This document shows, piece by piece, positions 9,582-60,502 of a DNA stretch of 64,000 nt. The position numbers were made by a program, and so were the translations under genes. The DNA is from Mustelus asterias. Its lineage: Eukaryota. Positions within the stretch are counted from its first letter, which is position 1. Every line of letters starts with the position of its first letter. The stretch lies in the NCBI RefSeq assembly GCF_964213995.1, contig NW_027590185.1:1-64000 (forward strand), given 5' to 3'. The notes under the pieces were generated by a model. That model was not told the origin of the DNA. It ran no database searches and saw only the letters and a program-made list of their open reading frames with translations.

Positions 9582-10424
9582 TCACTCGTGAACTTGTTGA
9601 TGTCTCAGCAGCCGGGATGAAACGCTGAAACCCTTCCCACACACAGAGCAGGTGAATGGCCACTCCCCAGTGTGAACTTGCTGGTGTCTCCGCAGGTCAG
9701 ATGACTGAGTGAATCCCTTTCCACACTGAGAGCAGGTGAATGGCCTCTCTCCAGTGTGAACTTGCTGGTGTCTCCGCAGGTCAGATGACTGAGTGAATCC
9801 CTTTCCACACTGAGAGCAGGTGAATGGTTTCTCTACAGTGTGAACTCGCTGGTGTGTCTGCAAGTTGGATAACTGAGTGAATCCCTTCTCACACTGTGAG
9901 CAGGTGAACGGCCTCTCCCCAGTGTGAACTCGCTGGTGTGTCAGCAGGCTGGATAACTGAGTGAATCCCTTCCCACACTGGGAGCAGGTGAATGGCCTCT
10001 CCCCAGTGTGAACTCGCTGGTGTGCCCGCAGGTTGGATACCCGAGTGAATCCCTTCCCACACTGAGAGCAGGTGAATGGTCTCTCCCCAGTGTGAACTTG
10101 CTGGTGTCTCTGTAGGTGGGATAACCGAGGGAATCCCTTCCCACACTGAGAGCAGGTGAATGGTTTCTCCCCAGTGTGAACTTGCTGGTGTGTCCGCAGG
10201 CTGGATAACTGAGTGAATCTCTTCCCACACTGAGAGCAGGTGAATGGTTTCTCCCCAGTGTGAACTCGCTGGTGTCTCTGCAGGTCGGATAACTGAATGA
10301 ATCCCTTCCCACATTGAGAGCAGGTGAATGGTCTCTCCCCAGTGTGGATGCGCCGATGAGCTTCCAGCTCTGATGGGGCTCTGTATCCCTTCCCACAGTC
10401 TACACATTTCCATGGTTTCTCCAT
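9582..10424 (-). CDS. C2H2 zinc-finger protein gene 1, 280 aa, 10 fingers, no effector domain
   Basis: ATG at MEKPWKC, ten CxxC-x12-HxxxH units with TGE(R/K)PF linkers. Confidence 0.9.
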
Positions 10425-10911
10425 GGTGCAGGTGTCCTTACCTCTCTCTTGAGTGGACAATTAGTTGAAACTTCGTCCACACACAGAACAAGATTACAGT
10501 CTCTCCCCGCTGTGAATGGTGTGATATTTATTCAGACTATGTAACTGGTTAAAGCTCTTTAGTCAGTGCATTGGAACACACTCACTCGAGTGTGGCAGTG
10601 TGTTGATGCTTTTTCACTCACACTGACATTTCAAATCTTTTCAAATCGACAGACTGGACAATCATTTCTCCTTCTGGATTCAAAGTCCGATGATATTGAG
10701 GTCGCAAGGAATATGATTCTGTCACGTCGAGACGTGACATTTGCGATTTCAGCCTGTGATTCCTCTTTCAATATCCTGGAAAATGAGTTTACAAAAGTCA
10801 TCAGTGTCAGTACAGGATAGAAATTCAGAACAGACAATTTCTATGGAACATTCTTTCCTCTCTCATTCCCCAAAAGCTGTAAATCTCCATCCCACACACT
10901 CTCTCCCCATT

Positions 10912-14545: not shown

Positions 14546-15502
14546 CATTGCTGATGAGAATTTTAATTTCCTGACTTGGGAATTAATTCTTGAGAATAGT
14601 CATTCTGAAAATGACCATTAAAATGTGTTTAATTTACCCCACAATGCCAGATTTCAGTTTGCATTTCAAAATTGAATTGAGAATGTCTGGGAGCAAATGG
14701 TAAAATGAGATTTGAGACACCAGCTGCAATTATTTTCTGTGACTGATGATACCTATGTGCCTGTGAAGGAGGTAATTCCGCTGCTGTTGTGGCACAAATA
14801 AAATGGAGCTTTTCCAAGGAACAGGCCCATGTTAATGGTCACCATGGTCTTTCATTGGTGAGCAGAGCACATGTGCCTATTGTGGTAACAACAGAGTCAG
14901 TCGGGCTGCACGTCCCCTGACTTGGAAGGAAAACAATTGACTCCTTGATTGTCATCTCAATCAGTCCATGGTCTGGAGGACTGAATCCAGCTGGAGGGAG
15001 AGGGAGCTGGGCTCAGAGTGGAGATGGGGCAATGAGTTTGATTTCAGCTCAGGGACAAGAGAGAGTGTGTGGGATGGGGATTACAGCTCAAGATAAATGA
15101 GACAGAGAAATCTTTCGTGGAAACTGAAATTGTCTGTTCTGAAGCAGTTTTTTAAAAACTCTTTGTCTGGAAGAGAAAGATTCACAGACAGGAAACTCAA
15201 ACTAAACTTCACATCAAAGTCTGACAGAGCCATTCGATTCATCATGACCTAAATATGATTGTTTTTGACAGTGGAGGGATAAATCATTCCCTGTTTTGTC
15301 AGTGGAAGAAAATTTCAAAATTCAATGTGACAGAAAAAGAACTGAGACACACACGCACACCCGAGTGAGCGTGCTCCAGTGAACTGACTGTGGATAGAGC
15401 TTTAACCAGTTACGTAGCCTGAAAAACATCACACCATGGTCTGTATGTGGATGAGGCTTCAACTAATCATCCAACCTGGAGAGACAGAAGGATACCAGCA
15501 CC

Positions 15503-15946
15503 ATGGACAAACCGTGGAAATGTGAGGATTGTGGTAAAGGATTCAATTGTCCATCCCGGTTGGAAACCCATCGACACGGTCACATTGGGGCTGGGAAAAT
15601 GGAGAAACCATGGAAATGTGATGATTGTGATAAAGGATTCAATTATCCATACTTGCTGGAAAACCATAGACACAGTCACACTGGAGAGAGGCCATTCATC
15701 TGTTCTGCGTGTGGGAAAGGATTCACTATCTCCTCCCACCTGCTGTTACACCAGCAAATTCACACTGAGGAGAGGTCGTTCAGCTGCTCCACCTGTGGAA
15801 AGGGGTTCTCATGTTCATCCAACCTCAGTGCACATCAGCGAGTTCACACTGGGGAGAGATTGTTCACCTGCTCCTTGTGTGGGAAGGATTTTGCTGGGCC
15901 ATCCAGTCTTTGGACACAACAGCGAATTCACACAGGATATATATGA
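15503..15946 (+). CDS. Divergent C2H2 ZNF gene 2, 4 intact fingers plus 1 degenerate, C-terminus cut by a CR1 insertion (possible pseudogene)
   Basis: MDKPWKC..., a second MEKPWKC unit, finger 5 lacks its first His, and the stop lies in insertion-junction sequence. Confidence 0.65.
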   Translation: MDKPWKCEDCGKGFNCPSRLETHRHGHIGAGKMEKPWKCDDCDKGFNYPYLLENHRHSHTGERPFICSACGKGFTISSHLLLHQQIHTEERSFSCSTCGKGFSCSSNLSAHQRVHTGERLFTCSLCGKDFAGPSSLWTQQRIHTGYI

Positions 15947-18802: not shown

Positions 18803-19405
18803 GCCAACATCTGTGAGTAAAACACTTTATTTTCTCCCCCTTTCCATTTCTTTTCTCATTCTGGGGGAAATTGGGACTTGCAGCAACTGAAGGGAAAGGA
18901 AGTGAATCCAGTCAGTATGTTCCACACATTGTTAGTCCAGTCAGATAGACATATATCTGTCTGGCAGCCTGCATGGAGATTTCCAGCTCTCTCTGTCCAG
19001 GACAGGAAGCAGTGAGCATGGATCTGTCAATCAGCACCTACAGGAGAATTGGGAGGGTGAATATTAGATACAGCAGAGTGAGAATGGAGGGAGAGTGTGT
19101 GGGATGGAGATTTGCAGCTCTTGGGGAATGAGAGTGGAAATAATGTTCCATGGAAACTCGAATTGTCTGTTCTGAATTTCTATCCTGTACTGTCAGTGAT
19201 AACCTTTGTAAACTCCTTTTACAGGATATCAGAAGTTGAGGATTTTACAGACAGAAATCTCAAACCAAACATCACATCAACATCCGACAGAGTCACTCAA
19301 TTCATCGGGACCTGAATATCTTCGGTCTTTGAATCCAGAAGGAGAAATGTTTCTCTGTTCTATCGGCTTTAGCAGTCTTTAAACATCATTGTGACTGGAA
19401 CAGGA

Positions 19406-19407
<2 letters not shown>

Positions 19408-19461
<54 letters not shown>
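19408..19461. repeat. (CA)n microsatellite in the 5' region of gene 3
   Basis: About 26 CA units; paralogs carry only a short acacacac at this position. Confidence 0.97.
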
Positions 19462-19465
<4 letters not shown>

Positions 19466-19620
19466 CAACTGAGATTTTCCCATGCAGTGACTGAGGAAAG
19501 AGCCTCCCAGTTACACAGCCTGAAAAAATATTGCACCATCGCAGCAGGGCACTATAATCTTGTTCTGTGTGAGACTTCAACTGATGGTCAAACCTGGAGC
19601 AACACAAGGACACCTGCAAC

Positions 19621-20463
19621 ATGGAGAAACTGTGGAAATGTGGGGACTGTGGGAAGGGTTGCAAAACCCCCTCTGAGCTGCAAATTCATCGACGTATTCA
19701 CACTGGAGAGAAGCCGTACACCTGTTCTGTGTGTGGGAAGAGATTCACTCGGTTATATCATCTGCAGCGACATCAGCTGGTTCACACTGGAGAAAGAGCA
19801 TTCATCTGCTTTGAGTGTGGGAACGGATTCGCTCATTTACCCGATCTGCAGAGACACCAGCGCGTTCACACTGGAGAGAGACCATTCACCTGCTTGGTGT
19901 GTGGGAAAGGATTTATGCAGTTATCCAATCTGTCAAAACACAAAGTCACTCACAGCAATGAGAGACCCTTTAAATGCTCTGACTGTGGAAATGGTTTCAA
20001 AAGCTCTCGGGAACTGACGATCCACCAGCGGATTCACACTGGGGAGAGACCGTTCAGCTGCTCTCACTGCACAAAGACATTTAGAACGTTATCTCACCTG
20101 CGGGAGCACCAGCGAATTCACACCAGGGAGAGACCGTTCACCTGCTCTGTGTGTGGGAAGGGATTCACTCATTCATCCAGCCTGCTGAGTCACAATCTCA
20201 CTCATACCCAGGAGAGACCCTTTAAATGCTCTGACTGTGGCAGTGGTTTCAAAAGCTCTCGGGATCTGGTTATCCACCAGCGCATTCACACTGAGGAGAG
20301 ACCGTTCAGCTGCTCTCACTGCACAAAGAGATTTAGAACTTCATTCAGCCTGCGGGAGCACCAGCGAGTTCACACTGGGGAGAGACCGTTCATCTGCTCT
20401 GTGTGTGGGAAGGGATTCACTCAGTCATCCAGCCTGCGGAGACACCAGCAAGTTCACAAGTGA
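19621..20463 (+). CDS. C2H2 ZNF gene 3, 280 aa, 10 fingers
   Basis: MEKLWKC start and ten canonical fingers, including a TCxVC/KCSDC/SCSHC triplet pattern. Confidence 0.9.
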   Translation: MEKLWKCGDCGKGCKTPSELQIHRRIHTGEKPYTCSVCGKRFTRLYHLQRHQLVHTGERAFICFECGNGFAHLPDLQRHQRVHTGERPFTCLVCGKGFMQLSNLSKHKVTHSNERPFKCSDCGNGFKSSRELTIHQRIHTGERPFSCSHCTKTFRTLSHLREHQRIHTRERPFTCSVCGKGFTHSSSLLSHNLTHTQERPFKCSDCGSGFKSSRDLVIHQRIHTEERPFSCSHCTKRFRTSFSLREHQRVHTGERPFICSVCGKGFTQSSSLRRHQQVHK

Positions 20464-25254: not shown

Positions 25255-26012
25255 TCACTCGTGAACTTGTTGGTGTCTCAGCAGCTGGGATGAAACTCTG
25301 AATCCCTTCCCACACTGAGAGCAGGTGAATGGTCTCTCTCCAGTGTGAACTCGCTGGTGTGACTGCAGACTGGATGACTGAGTGAATCCCTTCTCACACT
25401 TAGGGCAGGTGAACGGCCTCTCCCCAGTGTGAACTCGCTGGTGTGTCTGCAGACTGGATGAGGCAGTAAATCCCTTCCACACTGACAGCAGGTGAATGCT
25501 CTCTCCCCAGTGTGAACTCGCTGGTGTGTCCACAGGCTGGAAGAGTTAGTGAATCCTTTCTCACACTGAGGGCAGGTGAATGGCCTCTCTCCGGTGTGAA
25601 CTCGCTGGTGTGTCTGCAGACTGGATAATTGATTGAATCCCTTCCCACACACAGTGCAGGTGAACGGGCTCTCCCCAGTGTGAACTCACTGGTGTGTCCG
25701 CAGGGTGGATAACTGACTGAATCTCTTCCCACACACACAGCAGGTGAATGGCTTCTTCCCAGTGTGAACTCGCTGGTGTTTCTGCAGGCTGGATAACTGA
25801 GTGAATCCCTTCCCACACACAGAACAGGTGAATGGCCTCTCCCCAGTGTGAACTAGTTGGTGTGTCCACAGTTCAGATGACTGAGTGAATCCCTTTCCAC
25901 ACACACAGCAGCTGAAGGGCCTCTCCCCAGTGTGACTGCGTCGATGAATTTCCAGCCGAGATGGGCACATGTATCCCTTCCCACAGTCCCCACATTTCCA
26001 CGGTTTCCCCAT
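25255..26012 (-). pseudogene. C2H2 ZNF gene 4, 9 fingers, nonsense codon in finger 4 plus a downstream frameshift
   Basis: HQ-TGA-VH at 25686-25688 and a 1-nt loss near 25475, shown by split ORFs in the track. Confidence 0.88.
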
Positions 26013-26710
26013 GGTTCGGGTCCTTGTGACTCTGTAGTTTAAACAATCAGTTAAATCTCACACAGACCATGGGTGCAGTTCTCCCCGCTGTGAATGCTGC
26101 GATGTATTTTCAAGCTGTGTAACTGGTTAAAGCTCTTTCCACACTCAGTGCACTGGAACACTCTTGCTCAGGTGTGTGTGTGTCTCGGTGCTTTTCCAGT
26201 CACACAGATGCTTAAAATCTTCAGAAGCTGACAGAACAGAGAAACATTTCCCCTTCTCGATTCAAAGGTCAGTGATATTCAGGTCCGGATGAATTGAATG
26301 ATCCTGTCAGATTTGATGTGACATTTGGTTTAAGATTTCTGTCTGTAAATTCTCACTTTCTGATATTCTGTAAAAGGAATTTACAAAATTCATCAGTGTC
26401 AGCACAGGATAGAAATTCAGAACAGACAATTCTAGTTTCTATGAAACATTCTTTTCTCTCTCATTCCCCAAAAGCTGTAAATCTCCATCCCACACACTCT
26501 CCCTCCATTCTCACTCTGCTGTATCTAATATTCACCCTCCCAATTCTCCTGAAGGTGCTGATTGAGGCTGATTGACAGATCCATGCTCACTGCTTCCTGT
26601 CCTGGACACAGCTGGAAATCTCCATGCAGGCTGCCAGACAGATGTATGTCTATATGATTGGACCAACAATGTATGGATTATATAGACTGGACTCACTTCC
26701 TTTCCCTTCA

Positions 26711-29410: not shown

Positions 29411-29915
29411 TGGACAACTTCCGCACGGTGACGTCACAACGGTGTCCTGCCTGAATCAGCCAATAGACATCAGTTTGCTCTGCGGTGACGTCTTCGGGTT
29501 CCAGTGCGCAGGCTCGGGGCGCGGACACAGGAGCCCCGCACCCACCCATTGTTCCCCTCCCCCTCCACCACATCGAGCCAAGGTTTCCAGGCAACCGGCT
29601 GGCGGCTCCGGCCAGAGCGAGAAGACGCTCGGTTAGCTCCCCCTCCCCCCGGCCGGGGACTGCGCATGTCCAAGGGAAGGGGAAATTGCGCATGTGCAGA
29701 GATCGGCCACCGCCCCCCCCACCTGAATGCTGAGGTGTTGACCAATGGAAAGAGTTGGAGGGCCGGAAGTACCTTTCTCCTCCAGCCAACCAGACCTTCC
29801 CCCATTGTCTGAATGCGGAAACCAGACAATGAGCTTGTTCACCCGGAAAGCTGCTGTTCTCTCTCTGAATGAACATTGAGTACAGACAGACTCAAACTTC
29901 CTTCTGTCTCCCACA
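29380..29915. promoter_or_regulatory. Bidirectional-type CpG promoter and first exon of gene 5
   Basis: TGACGTCA, CCAAT boxes, two tgcgcatg, ccggaagt; donor acatct|gtgagt at about 29919. Confidence 0.65.
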
Positions 29916-30549
29916 TCTGTGAGTAAAACACTTTCTTTTCTCCCCCTATCCATTTCTTTTCTCATTCTGGGGGAAATTGGGGACTTGCAGCAACTGAAGG
30001 GAAAGAAAGTGAATCCAGGGAGGCTGCAGACTCTGGAAAGGTTGGCCCAGGTCTCTCTCTTTCTGACTTAAAGACATTGACATCCTTTGCTCCCTCAGCT
30101 TGACACATTGATTTGTCTGGCTAAAAGGATGGTCCCTTTCCTAATGTTCACAATTAAAGGGCTGGTTTTCCCAGGAGATGCCTGACATTTAAGAGAACAA
30201 TAAATTAATACAGGACAGAGATATGCCTAGTGTTGTTATATTGTAGATTTGATATATTATTTATGGTTCTGTAACAAAGTACATTTATTATTATTTCTCA
30301 TCTTGTAATGTAACACTGAAGCTATGTTATATATTTCCACTCATCGAGTCATTACAGCGCAGAAGGAGTCCATTCAGTAACTCGAATCCATGCCGACTCT
30401 TTGTAGAACAATCCAGTCAGTCCCATTCCCCTTCTATATTCCCTTTTCCCTGCAAGTTTATTTCCTTCATGTGCCCATCTAATTTCTGAAATATATTAAA
30501 GGGGACAGTAAACTAATATCGGACAGAGACATGTCTGATGTTGGGTTTT

Positions 30550-30848: not shown

Positions 30849-32146
30849 GTTGTTATATGGTACAGATTAGATATATTATTTATAGCTCTGTAATAAAATA
30901 CACTTATTATATCTGGCTGTGTAATTTTGGACTGCAGCTATATTTTATATTTCCAACAATCTCTTCCCTCAGAGAATTGTTAGTATCTAGATTTCTCTTC
31001 CATAGGGACCAGTGGAGGGATTGAATATATTCAAGGATGAGTTAGACAGTTTTCGAATGACAAGGGAGTCAATAATTATTGGGAACAGGCTGGAAAATGG
31101 AGAGAAAGCTCAGATGAGGAAGGATTTCTTCACTCAAGGACGTGGTGATGTTTTGGATTCTCTACCCCAGAGGACTATAGAGCCTCAGTCATCAAAAATT
31201 TTCAAGAGAGGGATTGATAGGTTTCTAGATAGTGAAGATATCGATGGATATGGGGGAAAGTGTGGGGAAAATAATGCAGAGGTAGATCAACCAATAATCT
31301 CAATGAATGGTTGAGCAGACTCGATGGGCTGAATGCTGACTGCAGCTCCTATTTGTTCTGATTTCTGTGCTGGACAGGAAGCAGTGAGCATGGATCTGTC
31401 AATCAGCCTCAATCAGCACCTTCAGGAGAATTGGGAGGGTGAATATTAGATACAGCAGAGTGAGAATGGAGGGAGAGTGTGTGGAATGGAGATTCACGGC
31501 TTTTGGGGAATGGGAGAGGAAAGAATGTTCATTAGAATCATAGAATTGCTGCATCTTATCAACCGTCCCTGAGCTTTCACAATGAATCCCACTTCTGAGG
31601 ACACCCTTATCTCTGACTTGTCTGTACTGCTGGCAGTCTCACAAAGCAGCTGCCTGTGTGCTGATACGGGAGGCCCTGCTGGGCAAGTTTAATGCTCCAT
31701 GACTGTGTCTTTAATGAATGCTCCATAAACTAGAAATGTAGATTTGAATTTCGATTGTATTCTGAATTGCGATTTTTTTTCTAAATTGACTTACAGGATA
31801 TTAGACAAGGAGAAATCAGACAGAAATCTCCAACATCACATCGAGATCTGACAGAGTGACTCGATTTCTTGGGACCTGAATATCATTGGCCTTTGAATCT
31901 AACAGGAGAAATGTTTGTTTGGCCTCTTGGCTTCAAAAGATTGTAAACATCGCTGTGACGAGAAATGCACTGAGATACACACACCCGAGTGAGAGTGTTC
32001 CAGTGCACTGAGTGTGGAAAGAGCTTTAACCAGTTACACAGCCTGAAAATGCATCACAGCATTCACAGCAGGGAGAGACTGTACCCGTGTTCTGTGTGAG
32101 ATTTAACTGATTGTTTAACCTGGAGAGTCACAAGGACACCCGCACC

Positions 32147-33100
32147 ATGGAGAAACCGTGGAAATGTGGGGACTGTGGGAAGAGATTCGGGTTCCCATCT
32201 GAGCTGGAAATTCATCACCGCAGTCACACTGGGGAGAGACCATTCACCTGCTCTGTGTGTGGGAAGGGATTCACTCATTTATCCAGCCTGCAGAAACACA
32301 ATCTCACTCACACCAATGAGAGACCATTTAAATGCTGTGACTGTGGGAGTGGTTTTAAAAGCTCTCAGTATCTGATGTCCCACCAGCGCATTCACACTGA
32401 GGAGAGACCGTTCAGCTGCTCTCACTGCTCAAAGAAATTTAGAACTTCATGCAACCTGCAGATTCACCAGCGAATTCACACCAGGGAGAGACCGTTCACC
32501 TGCTCTGTGTGTGGGAAGGGATTCACTCATTCATCCAGCCTGCTGAGTCACAATCTCACTCACACCAATGAGAGACCCTTTAAATGCTCTGACTGTGGGA
32601 TCAGATTCAAAAGTTCTCAGGTACTTAGGGTCCACCAGCGCACTCACACTGAGGAGAGACCGTTCAGCTGCTCTCACTGCACAAAGAGATTTAGAACTTC
32701 ATGCAACCTGCAGATACACCAGCGAGTTCACACTGGGGAAAGGCCGTTCACCTGCTCTGTGTGTGGGAAGAGATTCACTCAGTTATCCAGCCTGCTGAAA
32801 CACAAAGTCACTCACACCAATGAGAGACCCTTTAAATGCTCTGACTGTGGGAGCGGATTCAAAAGCTCTCAGGGACTGGTGTCCCACCAGCGCATTCACA
32901 CTGAGGAGAGACCATTCAGCTGCTCTCACTGCACAAAGAGGTTTAAAACGTCATCCAACCTGCAGGAACACCAGCGAGTTCACACTGGGGAGAGACCATT
33001 CCCTTGCTCTGTGTGTGGGAAGGGATTCACTCAGTCATCCAGCTTGCTGAGACACAAAGCCACTCACTCCAAGGAGAGCCCCTTTAAATGCTCTGCCTGA
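32147..33100 (+). CDS. C2H2 ZNF gene 5, 317 aa, 11 intact fingers, stop within finger 12
   Basis: accATGG start at MEKPWKC; repeating three-finger unit. Confidence 0.88.
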
Positions 33101-33481
33101 GAGGCCGGCTTCAGAAGCTCTCAGGAACTGATGATCCCCGAGCACATTCACACCGGGGAGAGGCCGTTCAGCTGCTCTCACTGTTCAAGGAGGTTTAGAA
33201 TATCATCAACACTGCTGAAACACCAGTGAGTTCACACCGGGGAGAAACCATTCACCTGCTCGGTGTGTGCGAAAGGATTTACTCGGTTATCCAGCCTGCC
33301 CAGACACAACATCATCACACCCAGGAGAGACCCTTTAAATGTGGGCATGGCTTCAAAAGCTCTCGGGAACTAATGTCCCACCAGTGAGTTCACACCAGGC
33401 AGAGGCTGGTCACCTGCTCTGACTGGGAAGGGATTCACTCAGTCAGCAAACTTGGTGAAACACCAGTGAGTTCACAAGTGA
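33101..33481 (+). pseudogene. Dead finger tail of gene 5 (about five decayed fingers ending HK-stop)
   Basis: Finger-like sequence continues past the stop, with TGA at 33227, 33385 and 33467 and deletions. Confidence 0.85.
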
Positions 33482-38982: not shown

Positions 38983-39825
38983 TCACTTGTGAACTTGTTG
39001 GTGTGTCAGCAGGGTGGATGAATCACAGAATCCCTTCCCACACTGAGAGCAGATGAACAGTCTCTCCCCAGTGTGAACTCGCTGGTGTGATTGCAGGGTG
39101 GATAACCGAGTGAATCTCTTCCCACACACGGGGCAGGTGAACGGCCTCTCTCCAGAGTGAACTCGCTGGTGTCTCCGCAGATTAGATAACTGAGTGAATC
39201 CCTTTCCACACTGAGAGCAGGTGAATGGCCTCTCCCCAGTGTGAACTCGCTGGTGTGTCTGCAGGTTTGATAAATGAATGAATCCCTTCCCACACTGAAA
39301 GCAACTGTATGGCCTCTCCCCAGTGTGATTGCGCTGGTGTGTCTGCAGGCTGTACAATTGAGTGAATCCCTTCCCACACTGAGAGCAGGTGAATGGTCTC
39401 TCCCCAGTGTGAACTCGCTGGTGTGACTGCAGATGAGATAACTGAGTGAATCTTTTCCCACATGCAGAGCAGCCGAATGGCCTCTCTCCTGTGTGAACTC
39501 GCTGGTGTTTCTGTAGGTTGGATGACTTACTGAATCCCTTCCCACACTGAGAGCAGGTGAATGGCCTCTCCCCAGTGTGAACTCGCTGGTGTGTCTGCAG
39601 GCTTGATATCTGAGTAAATCCCTTCCCACACTGACAGCAGGTGAATGCACTCTCACCAGTGTGAACTTGCTGGTGTCTCTGCAGAGTGGATGAATCAATG
39701 AATCCCTTCCCACACACCCAGCAGGTGAACGGCCTCTCCCCAGTGTGGCTGTGCCGATGAGCTTCCAGTAGAGAGGGCGCTTTGTATCTCTTCCCACAGT
39801 CCTCACATTTCCACGGTTTTACCAT
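38983..39825 (-). CDS. C2H2 ZNF gene 6, 280 aa, 10 fingers
   Basis: MVKPWKC start, ten canonical fingers, 3' UTR shared with genes 1, 4, 7 and 8. Confidence 0.9.
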
Positions 39826-40544
39826 ATTTTCAGTCTCCTTGTATCATTTGAAACCTTGTCCACACAGAGAACACGGTATGGTCTCTCCCTGCTGTGAATG
39901 CTGCGATGTATTTTCAGGCTGTGTAACTGGTTAAAGCTCTTTTCACTGTCAGTGCACTGGAACATTCTCACTCAGGTGTGTGTTTGTGTCCCGGTGTTTT
40001 TCCAGTCACACTGCTGCTTAAAATCTTGCAGTCAAACATTTCTCCTTCCCATTCAGAGGCTGAGGATATTTAGTTTCCAAGGAATCGAGTGACTCTGTCA
40101 GATCGAGATGTGATCGTTAAGATTTATCGGTGTGATTCCTCTTCTAATATCCTGTAAAAACAATTTACAAAATTCATCACAGTCAGTACAGGATAGAAAT
40201 TCAGAACAGACAATTCTAGTTTCTGTGGAACATTCTTTCCTCTCTGATTCCCCAAAAGCTGTAGATCTCCATCCCACACACTCTCCCTCCATTCTCACTC
40301 TGCTGTATCTAATATTCAACCTCCCAATTCTCCTGAAGGTGCTGATTGAGGCTGATTGACAGATCCATGCTCACTGCTTCCTGCCCTGGACACAGAGAGC
40401 TGAAAATCTCCATGCAGACTGCCAGTCTAACAGAAATATGGCTACATTCTTGACTAAGAATGTTTTAAATGGATTGTTTCAGTGAGTGAAGATACAGGGG
40501 GGTTGTGATTGATGATGATATTGAACTTGCTGCCAACGTGGGTG

Positions 40545-43716: not shown

Positions 43717-44213
43717 CTCACATGCTTACACGGCGTTTCCACCCACCAGGACGATCCATTGCTCTCTCCGTACCGCCAATCACCTCGAACAGATTTCCGA
43801 GCCCAAAATAACCGTTTTCCATCGCCATTACTCACACTGCGCATGCTCATGTCAAAGTTGACCCCGCCCCTCGTTCGCTCCGATTGGTTGGAGGACCGAC
43901 CGCTCCAGATCGGTCCTCCAGCACTGCACCTTCTTCCCATTGGTCCGCGCTGCCGTCAGTGTCAGGCGGACTGGCTGGAGTGAATGCATGTGGTTATGGG
44001 AATAGGGCCTGGATGGGATGGTGTTTGGTACAGACTCGATGGACAGAACGGCCTCTGTCTGTACTGTCGGGATTCTACAATGCTTTGTTTAATAGGAGAC
44101 AAAAACTGCAGCCACTATTCAAGATGCAGTTTCAGCAACGCCCTGTATAACTGAAGCACAATATCTTTACTTCAATGTTCAATTTCTCTCAGAATAAAGG
44201 ATTGCATTCCATA

Positions 44214-45050: not shown

Positions 45051-45388
45051 ATATCAGGGATTTGTTCCCAGGAGCAGGCTGAGGGTGAGAGAGTGGGTTT
45101 TCTGACTTTAATTAATTATTTATTTTTTCAGTTAATTTTGGGTTTAAAATCGGAGGTTTTTTTCAAAACCGGAAGTCGGGCCAGGAGTGGCCTGGGGAAG
45201 TTTTTGGAGGGTTTAAAAGCGCACCAAAGTATACAGCGGGCAGCATCGTAGCGGGCAGCAGAGTGAGTGGGAAGTTGAGTGAGCTGTCAGGGCTTTGGCT
45301 CACAGGGCTTGGACGAGCAGGGGTGAGTTTTTGTTTCCTTACACGCTTATTAACTTTTCACTGTCTTACTTGACATAAAGTGTCCAGT

Positions 45389-46318
45389 ATGAGTGTGAAA
45401 CCAGTGTGCTGTTCCCAGTGTAGGATGTGGGAGGTCCTGGAGGCATCTGGCCTCCCGGACATCCACATCTGTGAGGGGTGTGTCGAGCTGCGGTTCCTGA
45501 GGGACCGTGTTAGGGAGCTGGAACTGCAGCTCGAGGATCTTAGGCTGATGAGGGAGAATGAGGAGGTGATAGACAAGAGCTATCATCAGGTGGTCACACC
45601 AGGGCAACGGGAGGAGGCCAAGTGGGTGATGGCCAGGAAGGGTAAGGCTAGGGTGGTTGAGAGCACCCCAGTGGATTTGCCCCTGCACAACAAGTACTCC
45701 TGCTTGAGTACTGCTGGGGGGGACAGCCCGCCTGGGGGAAGCAGCAGTGGCCGTGTCTCCGCAGTGGAGTCCAGCCCTGTAACTCAGAGGGCTAAGGAAA
45801 AGAGGAGGAAGGCGGTATTAATCGGGGACTCGATGGTGAAGGGGACAGACAGGCGTTTCTGCGGAGGTAGGCGGGATTCTCGCATGGTGGTCTGCCTCCC
45901 TGGGGCCGGGATCCAGGATGTCGCTAGTCGCGTCCCGGAAATCCTGAGGTGGGAGGGAGAGGAGCCTGAGGTAGCGGTACATATTGGTACCGCTGAAGTG
46001 GGTAGGAAGGGAGAAGGGGTCATGAAAAGGGAGTACAGGGAATTAGGGAGACAGCTGAGAAAGAGGAAAGCAAAGGTAGTAATCTCAGGATTACTGCCTG
46101 TGCCACGGGAAGGTGAGGGCAGGAATGGAGTGAGGTGGAAGATGAATGTGTGGCTGAGGGACTGGTGCAGGGGTCAGGGATTCAGGTTCCTGGACCATTG
46201 GGACCTCTTTAGGGGCAGGGGTGCTCTGTATACAAAAAACGGGTGGAACTTGAATCACACGGGGACCAATATCCTGGCCGGTAGGTTGGCTAAGGTTACT
46301 GGGGAGAATTTAAACTAG
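45389..46318 (+). CDS. CR1 ORF1: zinc finger/leucine zipper plus SGNH esterase-like domain
   Basis: CSQC..HICEGC, LRDRVRELELQLEDL, LIGDS, CLPGA, VHIGT, VVISGLLP. Confidence 0.92.
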   Translation: MSVKPVCCSQCRMWEVLEASGLPDIHICEGCVELRFLRDRVRELELQLEDLRLMRENEEVIDKSYHQVVTPGQREEAKWVMARKGKARVVESTPVDLPLHNKYSCLSTAGGDSPPGGSSSGRVSAVESSPVTQRAKEKRRKAVLIGDSMVKGTDRRFCGGRRDSRMVVCLPGAGIQDVASRVPEILRWEGEEPEVAVHIGTAEVGRKGEGVMKREYRELGRQLRKRKAKVVISGLLPVPREGEGRNGVRWKMNVWLRDWCRGQGFRFLDHWDLFRGRGALYTKNGWNLNHTGTNILAGRLAKVTGENLN

Positions 46319-46372
46319 ATAGGTTGGGGGGAGGGGAGCTAGAAGAGTTGACTAGGATCAAGGAACTAATTG

Positions 46373-49431: not shown

Positions 49432-52400
49432 TGTAAGAATTTTGATTTGTTTGAACTAAGATTTATGGGTTCACTTGTTTCCAACAACCTCCCTAATCAT
49501 AACTCACCCAGGTTCCAGTGACTTAACCATATGGCAAGAAAGAACACTTTAAATGGTGAATTCAGAAAGTTTATTCACCATTAAAAATGTAACAAGTCAG
49601 AAAGATAAAAAAGCAAAGTATCGATCAACAGTAAAGGAGAAAGCTTAATTTTAACTTCTCTCCATCCCTCTCAGACCAGGACATGAAGTGGTGGCACTGA
49701 AAACACGGATAACTTGTAAAATCAACAGCTCCCAACACCTCTCTGTAGGACACAGTGGTTCGCACTGCTGCCTCACAGCGCCAGAGACCCGGGTTTGACT
49801 TCCGTCTTGGGTCACTGTCTGTGCAGAGTCGGCATATTCTCCCCCTGTCTGTGTGGGTTTTCTCCCAAAGTCCAAAGGACTTGCTGGTTAGGTACATTGA
49901 GCATTCTCCCTCAGTTTACCCGAACAGGCGCCAGTGTGTGGTGACTGGGGTATTTTCAGAGTAACTTCATTGCAGTGTGAATGTGTGACACTAATAACTA
50001 AACTTAAAAACACCTTGAACTTTTAAAACCTTTTGCCAAATTGGTTTTTAGAATCCCCTTTTTTATACTTTCAAAATGTAGAAAGCCCAGCTCAGCCAAT
50101 TGTTGGGAATTAGCCAATTGGTCTATAACTTGTCAACAATGAAATTGGTTTGGTTTTTGGCTAATTGCACATATTGTCTTAATTTTAAGACAATTCTTTC
50201 TCTCAAACGATATCTCTTAGCTTGGGGTAGCCTGAGTGTCGACCAAGAATTGGTTAACATCAGTCATTCAATGTTGAGACATCTTGAACAGGAGCCAATT
50301 CATTCCCTCCAGTCAATGTTAACAATGTTTTCAAGTTTATTTATTACTGTCACAAGTAGGCTGACATTAACACTGCAATGAAGTTACTGGGAAAATTCCC
50401 CTAGTCACAACACTCCGGCATCTGTTCAGGTACATTGAGGGAGAATTTAGCATGGCCAATCCACCTAACCCGCATGTCTTTTGGACTGTGGGAACAAAAA
50501 AGAGCACCGGAGGAAACCCACACAGACACAGGGAGAACGTGCAGACTCCGCACAGTCACGCAAGCCGGGAATCGAACCCAGGTCCCTGGCACTGTGAGGC
50601 AGCAGTGCTAATCACTGTGGCACCGTGCCACGCTAACAAGTCTTGTTATCTGTTTTGTTTTAGTCTGTTGTCCTCAGAAGGGAACATCGTATAATCCCCA
50701 CAACATTTTTACCATTCTTAATGTTTATAATTCTAAAAGTTATAAACTTTTGTATTCAAATTTACATTTCCAGCCTTTCTAACATATGCAGCAATGAATC
50801 ATTTATTATTTAATTGTTTCACAATTCAGGCTGTCCATTTAACTAATCTCCTGCTTTACAATTGTGGGAACTTCAGTCCAAAAATAAGGTAGTCAAATGT
50901 GTTGTCAAAAACAGAATGTTCTTTATATAAATAAATAACAAAGTTTAAAAATCATTGGCAAACAAAAGGAAACAGGAGCATTGGAACCAGCCTGGACTTG
51001 CAGACTGAAACCCCGCCCAAAGCCCGCACGAGCTCAGAAGGGAGAAAGGTTGAGAAGAACACTCCATAACACTTCTCCTCCCCTTAAATTTCAATCCCCC
51101 ATCAGGACAGAAATACAACAAAGTAATGTCTTTAACAATACGGAAGTCTGTCAGGAGCTTTGTGGTTTCATTGCGACCTGTACAATACCACTGGTAAATC
51201 TTGTAATGGTGTTTCTGGAATGGGAGATGAAGAGGGAGTTTGAGAATCTGTACATGAACATTCCTCTTCCACTCCCACAGCAGAGTCAACTGGCAAAGCT
51301 GGAACCATTTCCTGGTGAACATCCACAGCAGCATGACCCTCTGCCATGTTCTCAGTAATGGTTGCTGACTCTGAAACTGTTCCTGACTCGGGGTCACACC
51401 GCAAGTGAATCTGGTCTTCGTGGCTATGCTTAAAATTTCCACATTTAACTGGTTCCCATAAATCCTCAATTATAAAGCAAAATAGACAGAAGTTTCCAGG
51501 CGATTTAAAAACAAACAAACTGTCTGCTGAAAGGGTTAACTTTTCTACAGAACCTAAAGGGGTGGGGAGTGAGCAGAAAAAAACTTGGCACACAATTACA
51601 TCACTTTACACAAGTTAAAAAATCTTCTCTAACAACAAAACAATCTGAATTTTAAACTTCATCGATTATTCTTTTTGTTTTCTTCCTCAACCGAATAATT
51701 TTAATTTGATCAGTTTTTGTTTGAGATGGGTAACTTCTGTTCTTTATAAACTGATTCACTCGTTTTGTTAGTTCTACATGAGAATCAGAACCCAGCCTTT
51801 ATCATCCTTATCCTTTTTCTCCTTTTGCCACCACTCCCTCTGTTTTGCGGGAGGGTCGTGGGGATTCCAGTCAGAACTAATCATTTTATCACAAAAGTAA
51901 AATACTGCGGATACTGGAAACTGAAACAAAAACAAAAAATGCTGGAAAATCTCAGCAGGTCTGACAGCATCTGTGGAGAGAGAATAGAGCCAATGTTTCG
52001 AGTCTGGGTGACCCTTCATAAGAGCGCTTCTGAATTGTAATCCAGACTCGAAACATTGGCTCTATTCTCTTATCATTTTAATCGATATGTTTCTTGTTCT
52101 TAGTTTCCAAATGGCAGGTAAGAGACCTGTCCAGTCCCCACTTGAGCTCTGATTTTTCACTGGCCATGCTTGGGTAGGATTATAACCATTAGAATCTACT
52201 CTCAGAGGTCCGCTTTTCAGTCCATTGCTACTTGAAGTATACCGTCACTTCACCAACTATCAGGTCACAAATATATGATAAAATAATTTAAATAATGCCT
52301 GAAAACGCTTTGAACCAACTACCTATCATCGTTAGTTGATTGGTCAGACCCCCTTTTTACAGATTCAAGTATCTCAGCCACTGAACACCAGCCAGTCCTG

Positions 52401-53406: not shown

Positions 53407-54165
53407 TCACTCGTGAATTTGCTGGTGTCTCAGCAGCTGGGATGAAACTCTGAATCCCTTCCCACACAGAGAGCAGGTGAATGGTCTCTCCCCAGTGTGA
53501 ACTCGCTGGTGTGTCCGCAGGCTGGATGAGTTAGTGAATCCCTTCTCACACTTCGGGCAGGTGAATGGCCTCTCTCCGGTGTGAACTCGCTGGTGTGTCT
53601 GCAGACTGGATGAGGCAGTAAATCCCTTCCCACACTGAGAGCAGGTGAATGGTCTCTCCCCAGTGTGAACTCGCTGGTGTGTCTGCAGGCTGGAAGACTT
53701 GGTGAATCCTTTCTCACACTGAGGGCAGGTGAACAGCCTCTCTCCGGTATGAACTCGCTGGTGTTTCTGCAGGGTGGATAATTGAGTGAATCCCTTCCCA
53801 CACACAGTGCAGGTGAACGGCCTCTCCCCAGTGTGAACTCGCTGGTGTGTCCGCAGGGTGGATAACTGACTGAATTTCTTCCCACACACGCAGCAGGTGA
53901 ATGGCTTCTTCCCAGTGTGAACTCACTGGTGTTTCTGCAGGCTGGATGACTGAGTGAATCCCTTCCCACACACAGAGCAGGTGAATGGCCTCTCCCCAGT
54001 GTGAACTAGTTGGTGTGTCCGCAGTTCAGATGACTGAGTGAATCCCTTTCCACACACAGAGCAGCTGAACGGCCTCTCCCCAGTGTGACTGCGTCGATGA
54101 ATTTCCAGCCGAGATAGGCACATGTATCCCTTCCCACAGTCCCCACATTTCCACGGTTTCCCCAT
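53407..54165 (-). pseudogene. C2H2 ZNF gene 7, 9 fingers, single nonsense codon in finger 3
   Basis: HQ-TGA-VH at 53923-53925, frame otherwise intact; paralog of gene 4. Confidence 0.85.
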
Positions 54166-54213
54166 GGTTCGGGTCCTTGTGACTCTGTAGTTTAAACAAT
54201 CAGTTAAATCTCA

Positions 54214-54321
<108 letters not shown>

Positions 54322-54869
54322 TCAGGTGTGTGTGTGTCTCGGTGCTTTTCCAGTCACACAGATACTTAAAATCTTCAGAAGCTGACAGAACAGAGAAACA
54401 TTTCCCCTTCTAGATTCAAAGGTCAGTGATATTGAGGTCCCGATGAATTGAGTGATTCTGTCAGATGTTGATGTGACGTTTGGTTTGAGATTTCTGTCTG
54501 TAAATTCTCACCTTCTGATATGCTGTAAAAGGAATTTACAAAAGTCATCAGTGTCAGTACAGGATAGAAATTCCGAACAGACAAATCAAGTTCCTAAGGA
54601 ACATTCTTTTCTCCCTCATTCCCCAAAAGCTGTGAATCTCCATCCCACACACTCTCCCTCCATTCTCACTCTGCTGTATCTAATATTCACCCTCCCAATT
54701 CTCCTGAAGGTGCTGATTGAGGCTGATTGACAGATCCATGCTCACTGCTTCCTGTCCTGGACACATAGAGCTGGAAATCTCCATGCAGGCTGCCAGACAG
54801 ATATATGTATATATGACTGGACCAAAAATGTATGGATTATATAGACTGGACTCACTTCCTTTCCCTTCA

Positions 54870-56398: not shown

Positions 56399-56479
56399 TG
56401 ATCAGTTGCTGCAAGTCAACAATTTCCCCCAGAATGAGAAACAAAATGGAAAGGGTGAGAAAAGAAAGTGTTTTACTCA

Positions 56480-57040
56480 CAGATGTTGAAGACAGATGGA
56501 AGTTTGAGCCTGTCTGAAGCTCAATCTTCATTCAGAGAAAGAGCAGCAGCAGCTTCGCTGGGCAGGAATGAGCAGTTGAACAAGCTCATTGTCCAACTTC
56601 CGCATTCAGACAATGTGGGAGCTCTGATTGGCTGGAGGATCAGAGGCCTTCCGGTCCTCCAGAGTTCCCATTGGTCAATCCCCCGCAGACAGACAATGAG
56701 GGGCGGAGCCCCACGTGGGGATGGGCGGGCCTGTGCCCTCCAGCCGCGCTGAGCTGTTGTCCAATTGGAAAGGCTGGAAGACCCAGACAGACAATGGTCA
56801 GTGCGCCGGCTTTGTCCCGGGCCCCGCCCCACACCCGCACATGCGCATTCCCCCAAAACCCGCACATGCGCACTTCTGATTCACTTCCGCTCACCAGCTC
56901 TGGCCAATGGGAAGACTTGGAGGACCGGAAAGACCGTGGTCCTCCAGCCAATCAGAGCGCGGGCTTTGTGTGCATGAAGATTGAGCTTCAGACAGACTCA
57001 AACTTCCTTCAGTCTCAACCTAAAAGAGGCCAACATCTGT
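56480..57040. promoter_or_regulatory. Mirror-image bidirectional promoter and first exons of gene 7 (-) and gene 8 (+)
   Basis: Inverted homologous arms, each ending acatct|gtgagt; paired CCAAT boxes, two gcacatgcgca, GC boxes. Confidence 0.75.
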
Positions 57041-57169
57041 GAGTAAAACACTTTCTTTTCTCATTCTGGGGGTAATTGGAGAATTGCAACAACTGAAGGA
57101 AAAGGAAGTGAATCCAGGGAGAGTGCAGACTCAGGAAAGGTTGGCCCAGGTCTCTCTCTCTTAAAGAAA

Positions 57170-57655: not shown

Positions 57656-58738
57656 ATCCTTTGCTCCCTCAGCTTGACACATTTATTTGTCTGTCTAAAA
57701 GGATGGTCTTTTTTCTAATGTTCACAATTAAAGGGCAGCTTGCCCCAGGAGATGGCTGACATTTACGTTAATATAGGACAGAGATATGTCTAGTGTTGTT
57801 ATAAGGTACCCAGATTAGATATATTATTTATGTTTCTGTAATAAAATACTTTTATTATTATTTCTTGCATTGTAATATAATGCTGTAGCGATGTTATACA
57901 TTTCCAGTCATAAAGCCCATTACAGCACAGAAGGAATCCATTCGGTAACTCGAGTCCATGCTGACTCTCTGTATAACATTCCAGTCCCATTCCCACTCTC
58001 TATCCCCATTCTCCTGAAAGTTTATTTCCTTCAAGTGCCCATCCACTTTCATTTTTAAATAGAATCCATAGATATGGATGGAGATTTACAACTTTCTGGG
58101 AATGAAATCGGAAAGAATGTTCCATAGAAACTAGAATTGTCTGCTCTGAATTTCTATCCTATACTGACTGTGATGACTTTTGTAAACTCATTTCACAGGA
58201 TTTTGAATGAGGAATCACAGGCAAAAATCTCAACCGTCAAATCTAGAAAGAGTCATATTCCTTGGGATCTGAATATCTTGTAATATGGAACTGTTGCTAC
58301 GTTATATATTTCCAGACATCTCTTCCCTCAGAGGGTTGTGAGTCTTTTGGATTTCTCTTCCACAGGAACCAGTTGAGGATGAGGATCATTGAATATATTC
58401 CAGTTAGACAGATTTTTGACTGACAAGGGTGTCAAGGGTTATGGGGAACAGACAAGAGGATGGAGCAAAAGCTAATATGTGGGGGGATTTCTTCACTCAA
58501 GGATGTGGTAAAGCTTTGGAATTCTCAACCCCTGAGGACAGTGAAACCTCAGTCATCAACTATTTTCAAGAGAGAGATTGATTGGTTTCTAGATATTGAA
58601 GATATCAAGGGATATGGGTTTAGTGTGGGGACAATAATGCTGAGGGAGATGAACAAATTATCTCATTGAATAGGTTAAAAGGCTCGATGGGCCAAATGGC
58701 CGACTGCAACTCCTATTTGTTATGGTCTCTGTGTCCAG

Positions 58739-58804
58739 GACAGGAAGCAGTGAGCATGGATCTGTCAATCAGCATCAATCAGCACCTTCAGGAGAATTGG
58801 GAGG
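58739..58804 (+). other. Predicted 66-nt micro-exon conserved across the ZNF paralogs (also about 19001-19066, 26536-26601, 29092-29156, 31373-31438, 40320-40385, 54691-54756)
   Basis: tgtccag|GACAGG...GGGAGG|gtgaat; next acceptor ttttacag|gatatt at 58972/58973. Confidence 0.6.
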
Positions 58805-59323
58805 GTGAATATTAGATACAGCAGAGTGAGAATGGAGGGAGAGTGTGTGGGATGGAGATTCACAGCTTTTGGGGAATGAGAGAGGAAAGAAGGTTCTATA
58901 GAAACTAGAATTGTCTGTTCTGAATTTCTATCCTGTACTGACACTGATGACTTTTGTGAACTCGTTTTACAGGATATTGAAAGAGGAATCACAGGCCAAA
59001 ATCTCAAACGTCACGTCTCGATCTGACAGAGTCATATTCCATGGGAGCTGAATATCATCGGCCTTTGAATCTAGAAGGAGAAATGATTGTCCAGTCTGTT
59101 GATTTGAAAAGATTTCAAACATCAGTGTGACTGCAAAAGCACCAACACTCTGCCACACTCGAGTGAGAGTGTTCCAGTGCACTGACTAAAGAGCTTTAAC
59201 CAGTTACACAGCCTGAATAAATATCACACCATTCACAGCGGGGAGAGACGGTACCCGTGTTCTGTGTGTGGACGAGGCTTCAACTGATTGTCCACCCAAG
59301 AGAGAGGCAAGGACACCTGCACC

Positions 59324-60502
59324 ATGGAGAAACCATGGAAATGTGGGGACTGTGGGAAGAGATACAGAGCCCCATCTCTGCTGGAAGCTCATCGGCGCAG
59401 CCACACTGGGGAGAGGCCGTTCACCTGCTCTCAGTGTGGGGAGGGATTCACTCTGTCATCCAGCCTGCAGTCACACCAGCGAGTTCACACTGGGGAGAGA
59501 CCGTTCACCTGCTCTCAGTGTGGGAAGGGATTCACTCGGTCATCCAGCCTGCAGTCACACCAGCGAGTTCACACTGGAGAGAGGCCATTCACCTGCTCTC
59601 AGTGTGGGAAGGGATTCACTCAGTTATCCCACCTGCGGATACACCAGCGAGTTCACACTGGGGAGAGGCCATTCACTTGCTCTCAATGTGGGAAGGGATT
59701 CACTCAGTCATCCCAGCTGCAGAGACACCAGCGAGTTCACACTGGGGAGAGGCCGTTCACCTGCTCTCAGTGTGGGAAGGGATTCACTCGGTCAATCAAC
59801 CTGCTGACTCACCAGCGAGTTCACACTGGGGAGAGGCCATTAATCTGCTCACAGTGTGGGAAGGGATTCACTCAGTTATCCAGCCTGCAGACACACCAGC
59901 GAGTTCACACTGGGGAGAGGCCATTAATCTGCTCGCAGTGTGGGAAGGGATTCACGCAGTTATCCAGCCTGCAGACACACCAGCGAGTTCACACTGGGGA
60001 GAGGCCATTAATCTGCTCGCAGTGTGGGAAGGGATTCACGCAGTCATCCCACTTGCAGACACACCAGCGAATTCACACTGGGGAGAGGCCATTCACCTGC
60101 TCTCAATGTGGGAAGGGATTCATTGAGTTATCCAGCCTGCAGAAACACCAGCGAGTTCACACTGGGGAGAGGCCATTCACCTGCTCTCAGTGTGGGAAGG
60201 GATTCACTCAGTCATCCAGTCTGCGGACACACCAGCGAGTTCACACTGGGGAGAGGCCGTTCACCTGCTCTCAGTGTGGGAAGGGATTCACTCAGTTATC
60301 CAGCCTGCGGACACACCAGCGAGTTCACATTGGGGAGAGGCCATTAATCTGCTCGCAGTGTGGGAAGGGATTCACGCAGTCATCCCACTTGCAGACACAC
60401 CAGCGAATTCACACTGGGGAGAGGCCATTCACCTGCTCTCAATGTGGGAAGGGATTCACAGTTTCATCCCAGCTGCTGAGACATCAACAAGTTCACGAGT
60501 GA
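59324..60502 (+). CDS. C2H2 ZNF gene 8, 392 aa, 14 fingers
   Basis: accATGG at MEKPWKC; 14 x 28-aa units, highly homogeneous. Confidence 0.92.

What the first reader, a model, noticed from the sequence alone, without database searches (positions are those of the whole stretch)
58739..59326. Effector-less ZNF family whose conserved 5' cassette is a fossil N-terminal extension closed by a shared in-frame stop
Seen: upstream of the start codons lie 2-3 decayed fingers (e.g. 31990-32146 reads [31 protein letters not shown]). Most copies have a stop in aac-TGA/TAA 13 codons before and in frame with the ATG (59285, 19582, 32108, 15464, 10461-10463). The start Met replaces the Gly of a TGEKP linker. 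Inference: the family descends from a founder that lost its N-terminus and reinitiated at a linker, then amplified as finger-only proteins. Without KRAB/SCAN/BTB they may act as competitors or through a partner, a possible shark counterpart of the tetrapod KRAB-ZFP response to transposons. Readthrough or reinitiation control is an alternative.
Basis: partly seen in the sequence, partly recalled or inferred. Interest (0 to 1): 0.7.

Follow-up and report, generated by a model that had tools for sequence, protein, structure and literature searches.

The report
Shark zinc fingers shed their front
Hundreds of zinc-finger genes in this shark genome carry a start codon inside an old finger linker, behind three dead fingers that an intact relative still encodes, so they likely make bare DNA-binding proteins with no known silencing domain, and their fast-changing DNA-reading residues suggest an untested contest with transposons.

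Summary
Observation confirmed and sharpened. The first 351 nt of the coding exon (58973-59323) are a fossil: a ~40-codon spacer and three broken C2H2 fingers. The ATG (59324) stands where sister genes read HTGEKPWKC. The stop 13 codons upstream is shared (59 of 66 sampled copies) but is one of several lesions (median 5 in-frame stops; 0 of 66 open). It is no better kept than its neighbours and is kept in broken copies too, so readthrough control is unlikely. The leader evolves like non-coding DNA; purifying selection starts at the ATG. A solitary gene on another contig still encodes spacer and all three fingers behind a 13-codon first exon, so the part lost was probably not a KRAB/SCAN/BTB-type domain: the ancestor seems to have had none. 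Contigs of probable RNA runs from relatives show the leader as exon sequence. Base-contacting residues have dN/dS about 1.5-2.2, the poly-ZF arms-race signature. Transposon binding and any partner are untested. Database models show the same start in distant shark orders. This scan already noted the family on other DNA of this genome. Verdict: new variant of a known kind.

The parts
56880..57038 (+). Candidate non-coding first exon in the promoter region shared head-to-head with the 54147 gene; donor GTGAGT at 57039; 5' end approximate
   Evidence: Block found upstream of 35 of 66 copies, some only in part; one probable-RNA contig of a paralogue joins 57115 to the cassette start. Not shown for this locus.
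58169..58279 (+). Orphan duplicate of the acceptor and spacer start, without fingers
   Evidence: nhmmer hit, model positions 2-120
58739..58749 (+). Candidate 11-nt micro-exon (AG at 58737-58738, GT at 58750-58751)
   Evidence: Sequence; similar block in 26 of 66 copies; no RNA joint seen
58750..58972 (+). Intron segment copied along with the genes, ending in the acceptor AG 58971-58972
   Evidence: Alignment; depth step at the boundary in probable RNA runs, absent in a DNA-like run
58973..59082 (+). Fossil spacer, about 40 codons in the intact relative; the ATG kept by the relative and by sister genes is CTA here (59071-59073); upstream ATG at 59041
   Evidence: dN/dS 1.2 in disjoint pairs
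59083..59160 (+). Fossil finger -3, with upstream ATG 59083 and shared TGA 59128-59130 (TGG in the intact relative)
   Evidence: TGA in 61 of 66 copies; dN/dS 1.53
59169..59239 (+). Fossil finger -2 (4-nt deletion near 59187 in this subfamily)
   Evidence: dN/dS 0.97 in disjoint pairs, 0.48 in all pairs
59240..59323 (+). Fossil linker and finger -1
   Evidence: dN/dS 1.17
59285..59287 (+). Shared in-frame TGA inside finger -1 (CAA or CGA in intact relatives and sister genes)
59324..59326 (+). Start ATG in ACC-ATG-G context at the Gly position of a TGEKP linker
   Evidence: purine at -3 and G at +4 in 33 of 33 intact ATG copies
59324..59404 (+). Family-diagnostic lead finger (W before the first Cys; P+1, S+2, E+5)
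   Evidence: dN/dS 0.58, p=6e-5
59324..60502 (+). Finger-only ORF, 392 aa, 14 C2H2 fingers
9582..10805 (-). Paralogue, cassette plus 10 fingers; TAA 10461-10463, ATG 10424
15150..15946 (+). Paralogue, degraded cassette, 4 intact fingers with a duplicated lead finger
19195..20463 (+). Paralogue, 10 fingers; (CA)n expansion in the leader
25261..26397 (-). Paralogue, broken array (internal stop and frameshift)
31770..33235 (+). Paralogue, 11 fingers in the ORF; best-kept fossil finger -2 at 31992-32096
38983..40181 (-). Paralogue, 10 fingers; 18-nt deletion between stop and ATG
53407..54552 (-). Paralogue head-to-head with the 59324 gene; internal stop in finger 3

Best explanation
This is one member of a large shark family of tandem C2H2 genes whose last exon opens with a decayed spacer and three broken fingers, followed by an ATG at an old linker, so that each intact copy likely makes a finger-only DNA-binding protein. 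History (inferred from extant copies): an ancestor like the intact gene at G000:C1:169.14 Mb (short exon-1 peptide, ~40-aa spacer, fingers) gave a founder in which the linker codon for Gly/Arg became ATG. The flanking Thr and Glu codons supplied a ready strong start context. The front then decayed; the stops at 59128 and 59285 and the loss of the older ATG are founder scars copied with every duplication. Sister genes shortened the front by an internal deletion instead. Working (inferred): ribosomes reach the ATG by leaky scanning or reinitiation past 2-3 short upstream ORFs; these lie in the last exon and so would not trigger junction-dependent decay (established knowledge). The protein likely binds sequence-specific repeat DNA through fast-changing contact residues, most plausibly transposons (about 0.5), and acts by occupancy or through a partner docking on the conserved lead finger (about 0.3).
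For: Shown: 0 of 66 cassettes open from acceptor to ATG, median 5 in-frame stops; 40 of 189 leader indel runs are multiples of 3, against one 9-nt indel in finger 1; dN/dS 0.97-1.53 in the fossil frame against 0.58 (p=6e-5) in finger 1, 19 disjoint pairs; intact relative with exon 2 open for 376 aa, matching phase-2 exon 1 of 38 nt, 1753-nt intron, median 80% identity to the 66 cassettes; tree; strong start context in 33 of 33; no effector-domain Pfam match in 150 of 160 upstream ORFs; KRAB 0 of 76 candidates; probable-RNA depth step at the acceptor 33x, 8x and 4x against 0.3x in a DNA-like run, with contigs that start to match at 58968-58978 behind foreign letters and one that spans 58968-59294; contact-residue dN/dS 1.54-2.16 for kappa 1-5, bootstrap 95% 1.33-1.89 at kappa 1, zinc/core 0.04-0.07; 39 of 39 distinct fingerprints.
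Against: No run is on record as RNA, none is shown to be of this organism, and all are short contigs summed over paralogues, so expression of this locus and full transcript structure are not shown. Every intact copy has upstream ATGs and 9 of 33 have an out-of-frame ORF overlapping the start, which should cut translation. 16 of 66 copies are broken (2 fingers or fewer) and 11 are short. Finger -2 differs less than other leader parts (136/1243 against 146/755 in the intron) and gave dN/dS 0.48 in all pairs, unexplained. Finger shuffling and conversion can inflate contact-site dN/dS, and several of the 23 pairs are near-identical. The KRAB search had no positive control; only 150 of 604 SCAN candidates were scored; BTB was not searched genome-wide. 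Monophyly falls to 94/93 without trait columns and rests on one outgroup. No evidence on binding targets.
Confidence: 0.7

Rival explanations
1. The leader is a kept regulatory device: upstream ORFs and the stop gate translation (reinitiation or readthrough), for instance in germ line or under stress.
For: All 33 intact ATG copies have upstream ATGs, median 3; ATG 59083 in 49 of 66 and TGA 59128 in 61 of 66; finger -2 is less divergent than the intron.
Against: 14-15% of leader triplets are kept as well as the stop or better; the stop is present in 36 of 39 intact and 16 of 16 broken copies; upstream ATG 59083 changes at the leader's average rate (9/57); frame to the main ATG kept in only 8 of 33, so readthrough has no frame to read.
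Confidence: 0.12
2. A hidden effector exon, too short or too diverged for Pfam, is spliced onto the fingers in some isoforms.
For: Emerson and Thomas list missed small exons as a cause of apparent finger-only genes (PMC2604467, passages). An earlier scan note reports another shark ZNF group spliced to a transposon tail (e1-8795615, not tested here). One sister-type model splices a 34-aa exon 1 in frame (P0001).
Against: Splicing to the shared acceptor meets stops in 66 of 66; probable-RNA contigs enter at 58973 and no GT..AG joint past the stop is among those listed (lists were cut); the exon-1 type of P0001 has a stop before codon 33 in 14 of 30 paralogues and mixed phases; promoter-to-acceptor distances are a few kb with no effector ORF.
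Confidence: 0.08
3. The family is largely passive: segmental duplication in unstable regions spread the genes, and most are weakly translated or dying, with no role in transposon control.
For: 27 of 66 copies have fewer than 7 fingers in frame; near-identical copies on many small contigs, some perhaps uncollapsed haplotypes; heavy upstream-ATG load.
Against: Zinc/core dN/dS 0.04-0.07 and contact dN/dS above 1; the same start in models from distant shark orders.
Confidence: 0.1

Closest known systems
Poly-ZF lineage-specific expansions (Emerson and Thomas 2009, PMC2604467, passages read; Wells et al. 2023, PMC10547256, passages and supplement rows read)
   Same: Clustered tandem C-X2-C-X12-H-X3-H arrays with TGEKP linkers in one exon; positive selection at -1, 3 and 6; shark genomes are already counted as ZNF-rich (Scyliorhinus canicula 3586, Carcharodon 1851 ZNF ORFs; supplement file 2).
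   Different: The passages read do not describe shark gene structure, a linker-derived start or a fossil-finger leader.
KRAB-ZFPs of sarcopterygians
   Same: Works-like resemblance: clustered, birth-and-death, diversifying contact residues, spacer-then-fingers last exon.
   Different: No KRAB found; the spacer is a non-coding fossil; TRIM28 recruitment and TE targets untested. PMC11603059 (passages) places the origin of KRAB-ZNFs in bony fishes, with only PRDM9 in whale shark.
FiNZ-ZNFs of cyprinids (PMC10547256)
   Same: Independent fish expansion under positive selection.
   Different: FiNZ is a conserved 28-aa coding N-terminal domain; here no conserved coding sequence precedes finger 1.
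ZNF146/OZF (PMC8896011, abstract and passages)
   Same: Finger-only protein of 10 C2H2 fingers without KRAB that binds LINE-1, a precedent for the proposed action.
   Different: A single gene rather than a family; no homology to it was tested.

Membership tests
Poly-ZF tandem C2H2 genes | 4 or more tandem C2H2 fingers with canonical linkers | tested here: met
   14 fingers in 59324-60502
Poly-ZF tandem C2H2 genes | Clustered lineage-specific expansion | tested here: met
   66 full cassettes in 1.064 Mb; 370 exact 26-mer matches on many contigs
Poly-ZF tandem C2H2 genes | dN/dS above 1 at helix -1, 3, 6 | tested here: met
   1.84-2.64 for these three positions, 23 pairs, counting method, conversion not excluded
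KRAB-ZFP | N-terminal KRAB domain in an upstream exon | tested here: not met
   0 of 76 candidates genome-wide, no positive control; none in 150 upstream ORFs; exon closed to upstream frames in 66 of 66
KRAB-ZFP | TRIM28 recruitment and binding to transposons | not testable with these tools
   Needs ChIP and co-IP
SCAN-ZF / BTB-ZF | SCAN or BTB domain upstream of the fingers | tested here: not met
   None in 150 upstream ORFs; none of 146 listed SCAN matches lies in the sampled cluster stretches, 150 of 604 candidates scored; BTB not searched genome-wide
FiNZ-ZNF | Conserved coding N-terminal peptide | tested here: not met
   Leader dN/dS about 1 and frameshifted; one exon-1 type frameshifted. 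No FiNZ profile was run.
Readthrough- or uORF-regulated genes | Conserved open frame around a conserved stop | tested here: not met
Readthrough- or uORF-regulated genes | Upstream ORFs that change main-ORF output | not testable with these tools
   Upstream ATGs are present; effect unknown

The most novel reading that the evidence does not exclude
Sharks police transposons with a family of hundreds to thousands of effector-less ZNFs, born from one linker-to-start mutation before the split of the two shark superorders, in which the conserved lead finger is itself the co-repressor docking module: a solution independent of KRAB and FiNZ.
Probability: 0.2. Interest if true: 0.8.

Novelty: new variant of a known kind. 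Interest (0 to 1): 0.5.

Why it matters
Sharks have thousands of ZNF ORFs but lack KRAB-ZNFs (PMC8455134 and PMC11603059, passages), so how they control a transposon-rich genome is open. This family gives defined, testable candidates: known start, known lead finger, diversifying contact residues. It is also a clean case of a new start codon arising in a pre-adapted linker, with the intact form, the decayed leader and a second truncation (sister genes) all in one genome. For annotation, the heterogeneous N-termini of several database models of this family are likely fusions.

Tried and rejected
Readthrough or selected stop: rejected. Coding signal in finger -2: seen in all pairs (0.48), gone in disjoint pairs (0.97). 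The MAAVN exon 1 as a conserved coding effector exon: rejected, frameshifts and stops; read as a YY1-like promoter motif (label recalled). Open cluster copies: none among 30 of 54 sense-codon loci (19 sister type, 11 leader type open for at most 59 codons), 12 of 12, 4 long-frame hits, or the pattern hits (3 read, the fourth is the same place as L191); the intact gene came. Head-to-head pairing: 27 head-head, 23 tail-tail, 37 tandem; head-head closest (median 4.3 kb), excess of opposite orientation not significant, p=0.10. Micro-exon: no RNA joint. No RNA holder listed. Uninformative: protein search for longer relatives of L208 found none; the representative search was flooded by long generic ZNFs; exact look-ups found nothing, and 3 of the 6 lacked the first Met by my error; the protein atlas gave no answer for the spacer; no Pfam match for the spacer; the by-sequence look-up of earlier findings was blank. 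A branch-wise count of changes was not done. Literature: searches (listings) showed no paper on this leader or start; most subscription papers are not searched, and 3 supplement files of PMC10547256 were not searched and could bear on this.

Full report
1. Observation. The window holds eight C2H2 arrays. Five have a stop 13 codons before an in-frame ATG at the coordinates given; the other three carry the same TGA displaced by deletions. Aligning the upstream DNA shows a shared block from a splice acceptor (AG 58971-58972) to the ATG at 59324. The family is large: the cassette had 4250 first-look candidates, which is not a copy number, and an exact 26-mer over the stop has 316 stop and 54 sense matches. 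The nearest named proteins are from sharks.

2. Sample. I took 1.064 Mb from six stretches (the window with 200 kb beside it, and five stretches chosen around pattern hits, so biased to this type). Of 230 HMM hits touching the cassette, 66 covered it fully (model start at or before 60, end at or after 455, over 150 bits); partial hits and internal fingers were dropped. 59 of 66 have a stop triplet at the site, 48 in frame; 61 have a second TGA at 59128; none is open from acceptor to ATG; the median is five in-frame stops. 39 have at least 7 fingers in frame, 16 have at most 2.

3. The leader is a fossil. Only 40 of 189 indel runs are multiples of three, against one 9-nt indel in finger 1. In 19 disjoint pairs of intact copies dN/dS in the old frame is 1.2 (spacer), 1.53, 0.97 and 1.17 (fingers -3, -2, -1) and 0.58 in finger 1 (p=6e-5). 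The all-pairs count gave 0.79, 0.95, 0.48, 0.75 and 0.26; the low value for finger -2 did not survive independent pairs, though that finger stays less divergent than the intron. The stop is not special: 14-15% of leader triplets are kept as well, and broken copies keep it (16 of 16) as intact ones do (36 of 39).

4. What was lost. A lead from an earlier scan note (e1-8850973) sent me looking for intact relatives. A protein search of the genome found one: a solitary gene at C1:169.14 Mb. Its exon is open for 376 aa from the same acceptor and encodes the spacer, all three fingers and nine more. A CpG-rich region 1.9 kb upstream holds an ATG and a donor 38 nt later, in the matching phase, with a 1753-nt intron; this exon 1 is my prediction, without RNA support. 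Its exon start is a median 80% identical to the 66 cassettes. It has TGG and CAA where the cluster has its two stops. The spacer matches no Pfam family. So the lost front was probably a short peptide, a spacer and three fingers, not a classical effector domain.

5. Sister genes and the start. 19 of 30 sense-codon loci examined belong to a sister type that shares acceptor and spacer, keeps an older ATG (MEGK...), and lacks finger -3 and most of finger -2 by deletion. Some sister proteins keep HTGEKPWKC (P0024, P0039), which fixes the alignment: the cluster's Met stands at Gly. The neighbouring Thr and Glu codons give a purine at -3 and G at +4, present in 33 of 33 intact ATG copies and 21 of 22 others. 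In a tree of 22 of the 39 intact copies drawn at random, one dispersed copy, 14 sister genes and the intact gene as outgroup, the leader type is one side of a branch (100/98; 94/93, not starred, without stop and start columns). Sister genes as one clade are neither shown nor rejected (p-AU 0.33). Database models with the MEKPWKC start or its remnant come from Pristiophorus, Heptranchias, Heterodontus, Chiloscyllium and Mustelus, the sister type from Scyliorhinus and Cetorhinus. That spans both shark superorders (classification recalled), so the founder is likely older than their split.

6. No effector exon found. 150 of 160 sense ORFs of 40 aa or more between promoter and ATG of the eight window genes were scanned (10 LINE ORFs or frames inside them left out): two zinc-finger matches and three sub-cut-off chance matches, no effector domain. 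KRAB has no match in the genome, without positive control. SCAN-like matches are scattered outside the sampled clusters. One exon-1 type begins with an ATG and is modelled as coding in P0001, but 14 of 30 paralogues stop before codon 33 and phases vary.

7. RNA. No holder is on record as RNA. In runs guessed to be RNA from other organisms, laid at 85-88% likeness, summed contig depth rises at the acceptor (33x, 8x, 4x; 0.3x in a large DNA-like run), several contigs begin to match at 58968-58978 behind foreign letters, one spans 58968-59294, and one joins the exon-1 region to the cassette. This supports the leader as spliced exon sequence in the family; it shows neither the level of expression nor anything about this locus alone.

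8. Function. In 23 pairs of close arrays (regional copies and loci L001-L030; first four fingers), dN/dS at -1, 2, 3, 6 is 1.54-2.16 depending on the transition weight (bootstrap 95% 1.33-1.89 at weight 1), at zinc/core positions 0.04-0.07. All 39 intact arrays have distinct fingerprints. This is the pattern that PMC2604467 reports for poly-ZF expansions (passages). The lead finger is distinctive (W 38, P 35, S 34, E 35 of 39; W 2, P 9, E 4 of 374 inner fingers) and its non-contact positions are more constrained (0.39-0.54 against 0.72-1.03), though its contact residues also diversify. Inferred: sequence-specific DNA binding in a conflict, most plausibly with transposons given the metazoan ZNF-retroelement correlation (PMC10547256, passages) and the finger-only LINE-1 binder ZNF146 (PMC8896011, abstract and passages); action by occupancy or by a partner on the lead finger. 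None of this is shown. All intact copies carry upstream ATGs and 9 of 33 an overlapping out-of-frame ORF, so output may be low.

9. Known and new. It is a poly-ZF expansion by every feature tested, and not a KRAB, SCAN, BTB or FiNZ member by the tests run. Shark ZNF abundance is in print (supplement of PMC10547256); the main text has no shark passage. PMC8455134 and 10.1101/2025.06.08.657570 were read as passages and do not describe this family. Six searches listed no paper on the fossil leader or linker start. Earlier notes of this scan describe the same family on other DNA of this genome; they are not independent support. Verdict: real, well-supported history, unproven function; new variant of a known kind; interest 0.5.

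Noticed in passing
G000:C1:169139.9k-169142817 (-), loci L220, L223: Solitary intact 12-finger gene that still encodes the spacer and three fingers that are fossil in the clusters; best outgroup for the family.
   Followed up: partly
L034-L060 (CAA loci), L135; C153:73478, 100085, 228252, 239828: Sister subfamily starting MEG(K/E)..., derived by internal deletion; some copies are open from the acceptor.
   Followed up: partly
L161-L190; 217 genome matches: Promoter/exon-1 family with a YY1-like AAGATGGCGGC motif, listed matches almost all on ZNF-cluster contigs; not a conserved coding exon.
   Followed up: partly
window 13250-14050, 29250-30070, 56400-57150: Promoter-like regions between head-to-head gene pairs (10424/15503, 26012/32147, 54165/59324); head-head neighbours lie closest (median 4.3 kb).
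   Followed up: partly
window 59169-59239: Fossil finger -2 is less divergent among paralogues than the rest of the leader and the intron; unexplained (splicing enhancer, low mutability or conversion).
   Followed up: partly
window 28612-28954 (-): Cassette with fossil fingers but no array behind it, between the 26012 gene and its promoter.
   Followed up: no
window 45374-49330 (+), 41488-43725 (-): Near-complete LINE (ORF1 of 314 aa with esterase-like look, ORF2 of 986 aa) and a 745-aa ORF2 fragment; family label CR1-like is recalled, not tested.
   Followed up: no
window 5073-5845, 22840-23361, 50945-51605: Three copies of an unidentified repeat with similar open frames on the minus strand.
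   Followed up: no
L208 (C16:91.53 Mb), L212, L213, L215: Dispersed, diverged cassette copies outside the clusters; L208 has an intact array and shares the finger -1 stop.
   Followed up: partly
P0002, P0004, P0005, P0017, P0022: Database models fuse family members with histone H2A, RT fragments or neighbouring ZNF genes; likely annotation artefacts.
   Followed up: no
G000: 146 SCAN-like matches scattered over large contigs, many with stops, probably retrotransposon gag remnants (recalled origin of SCAN).
   Followed up: no
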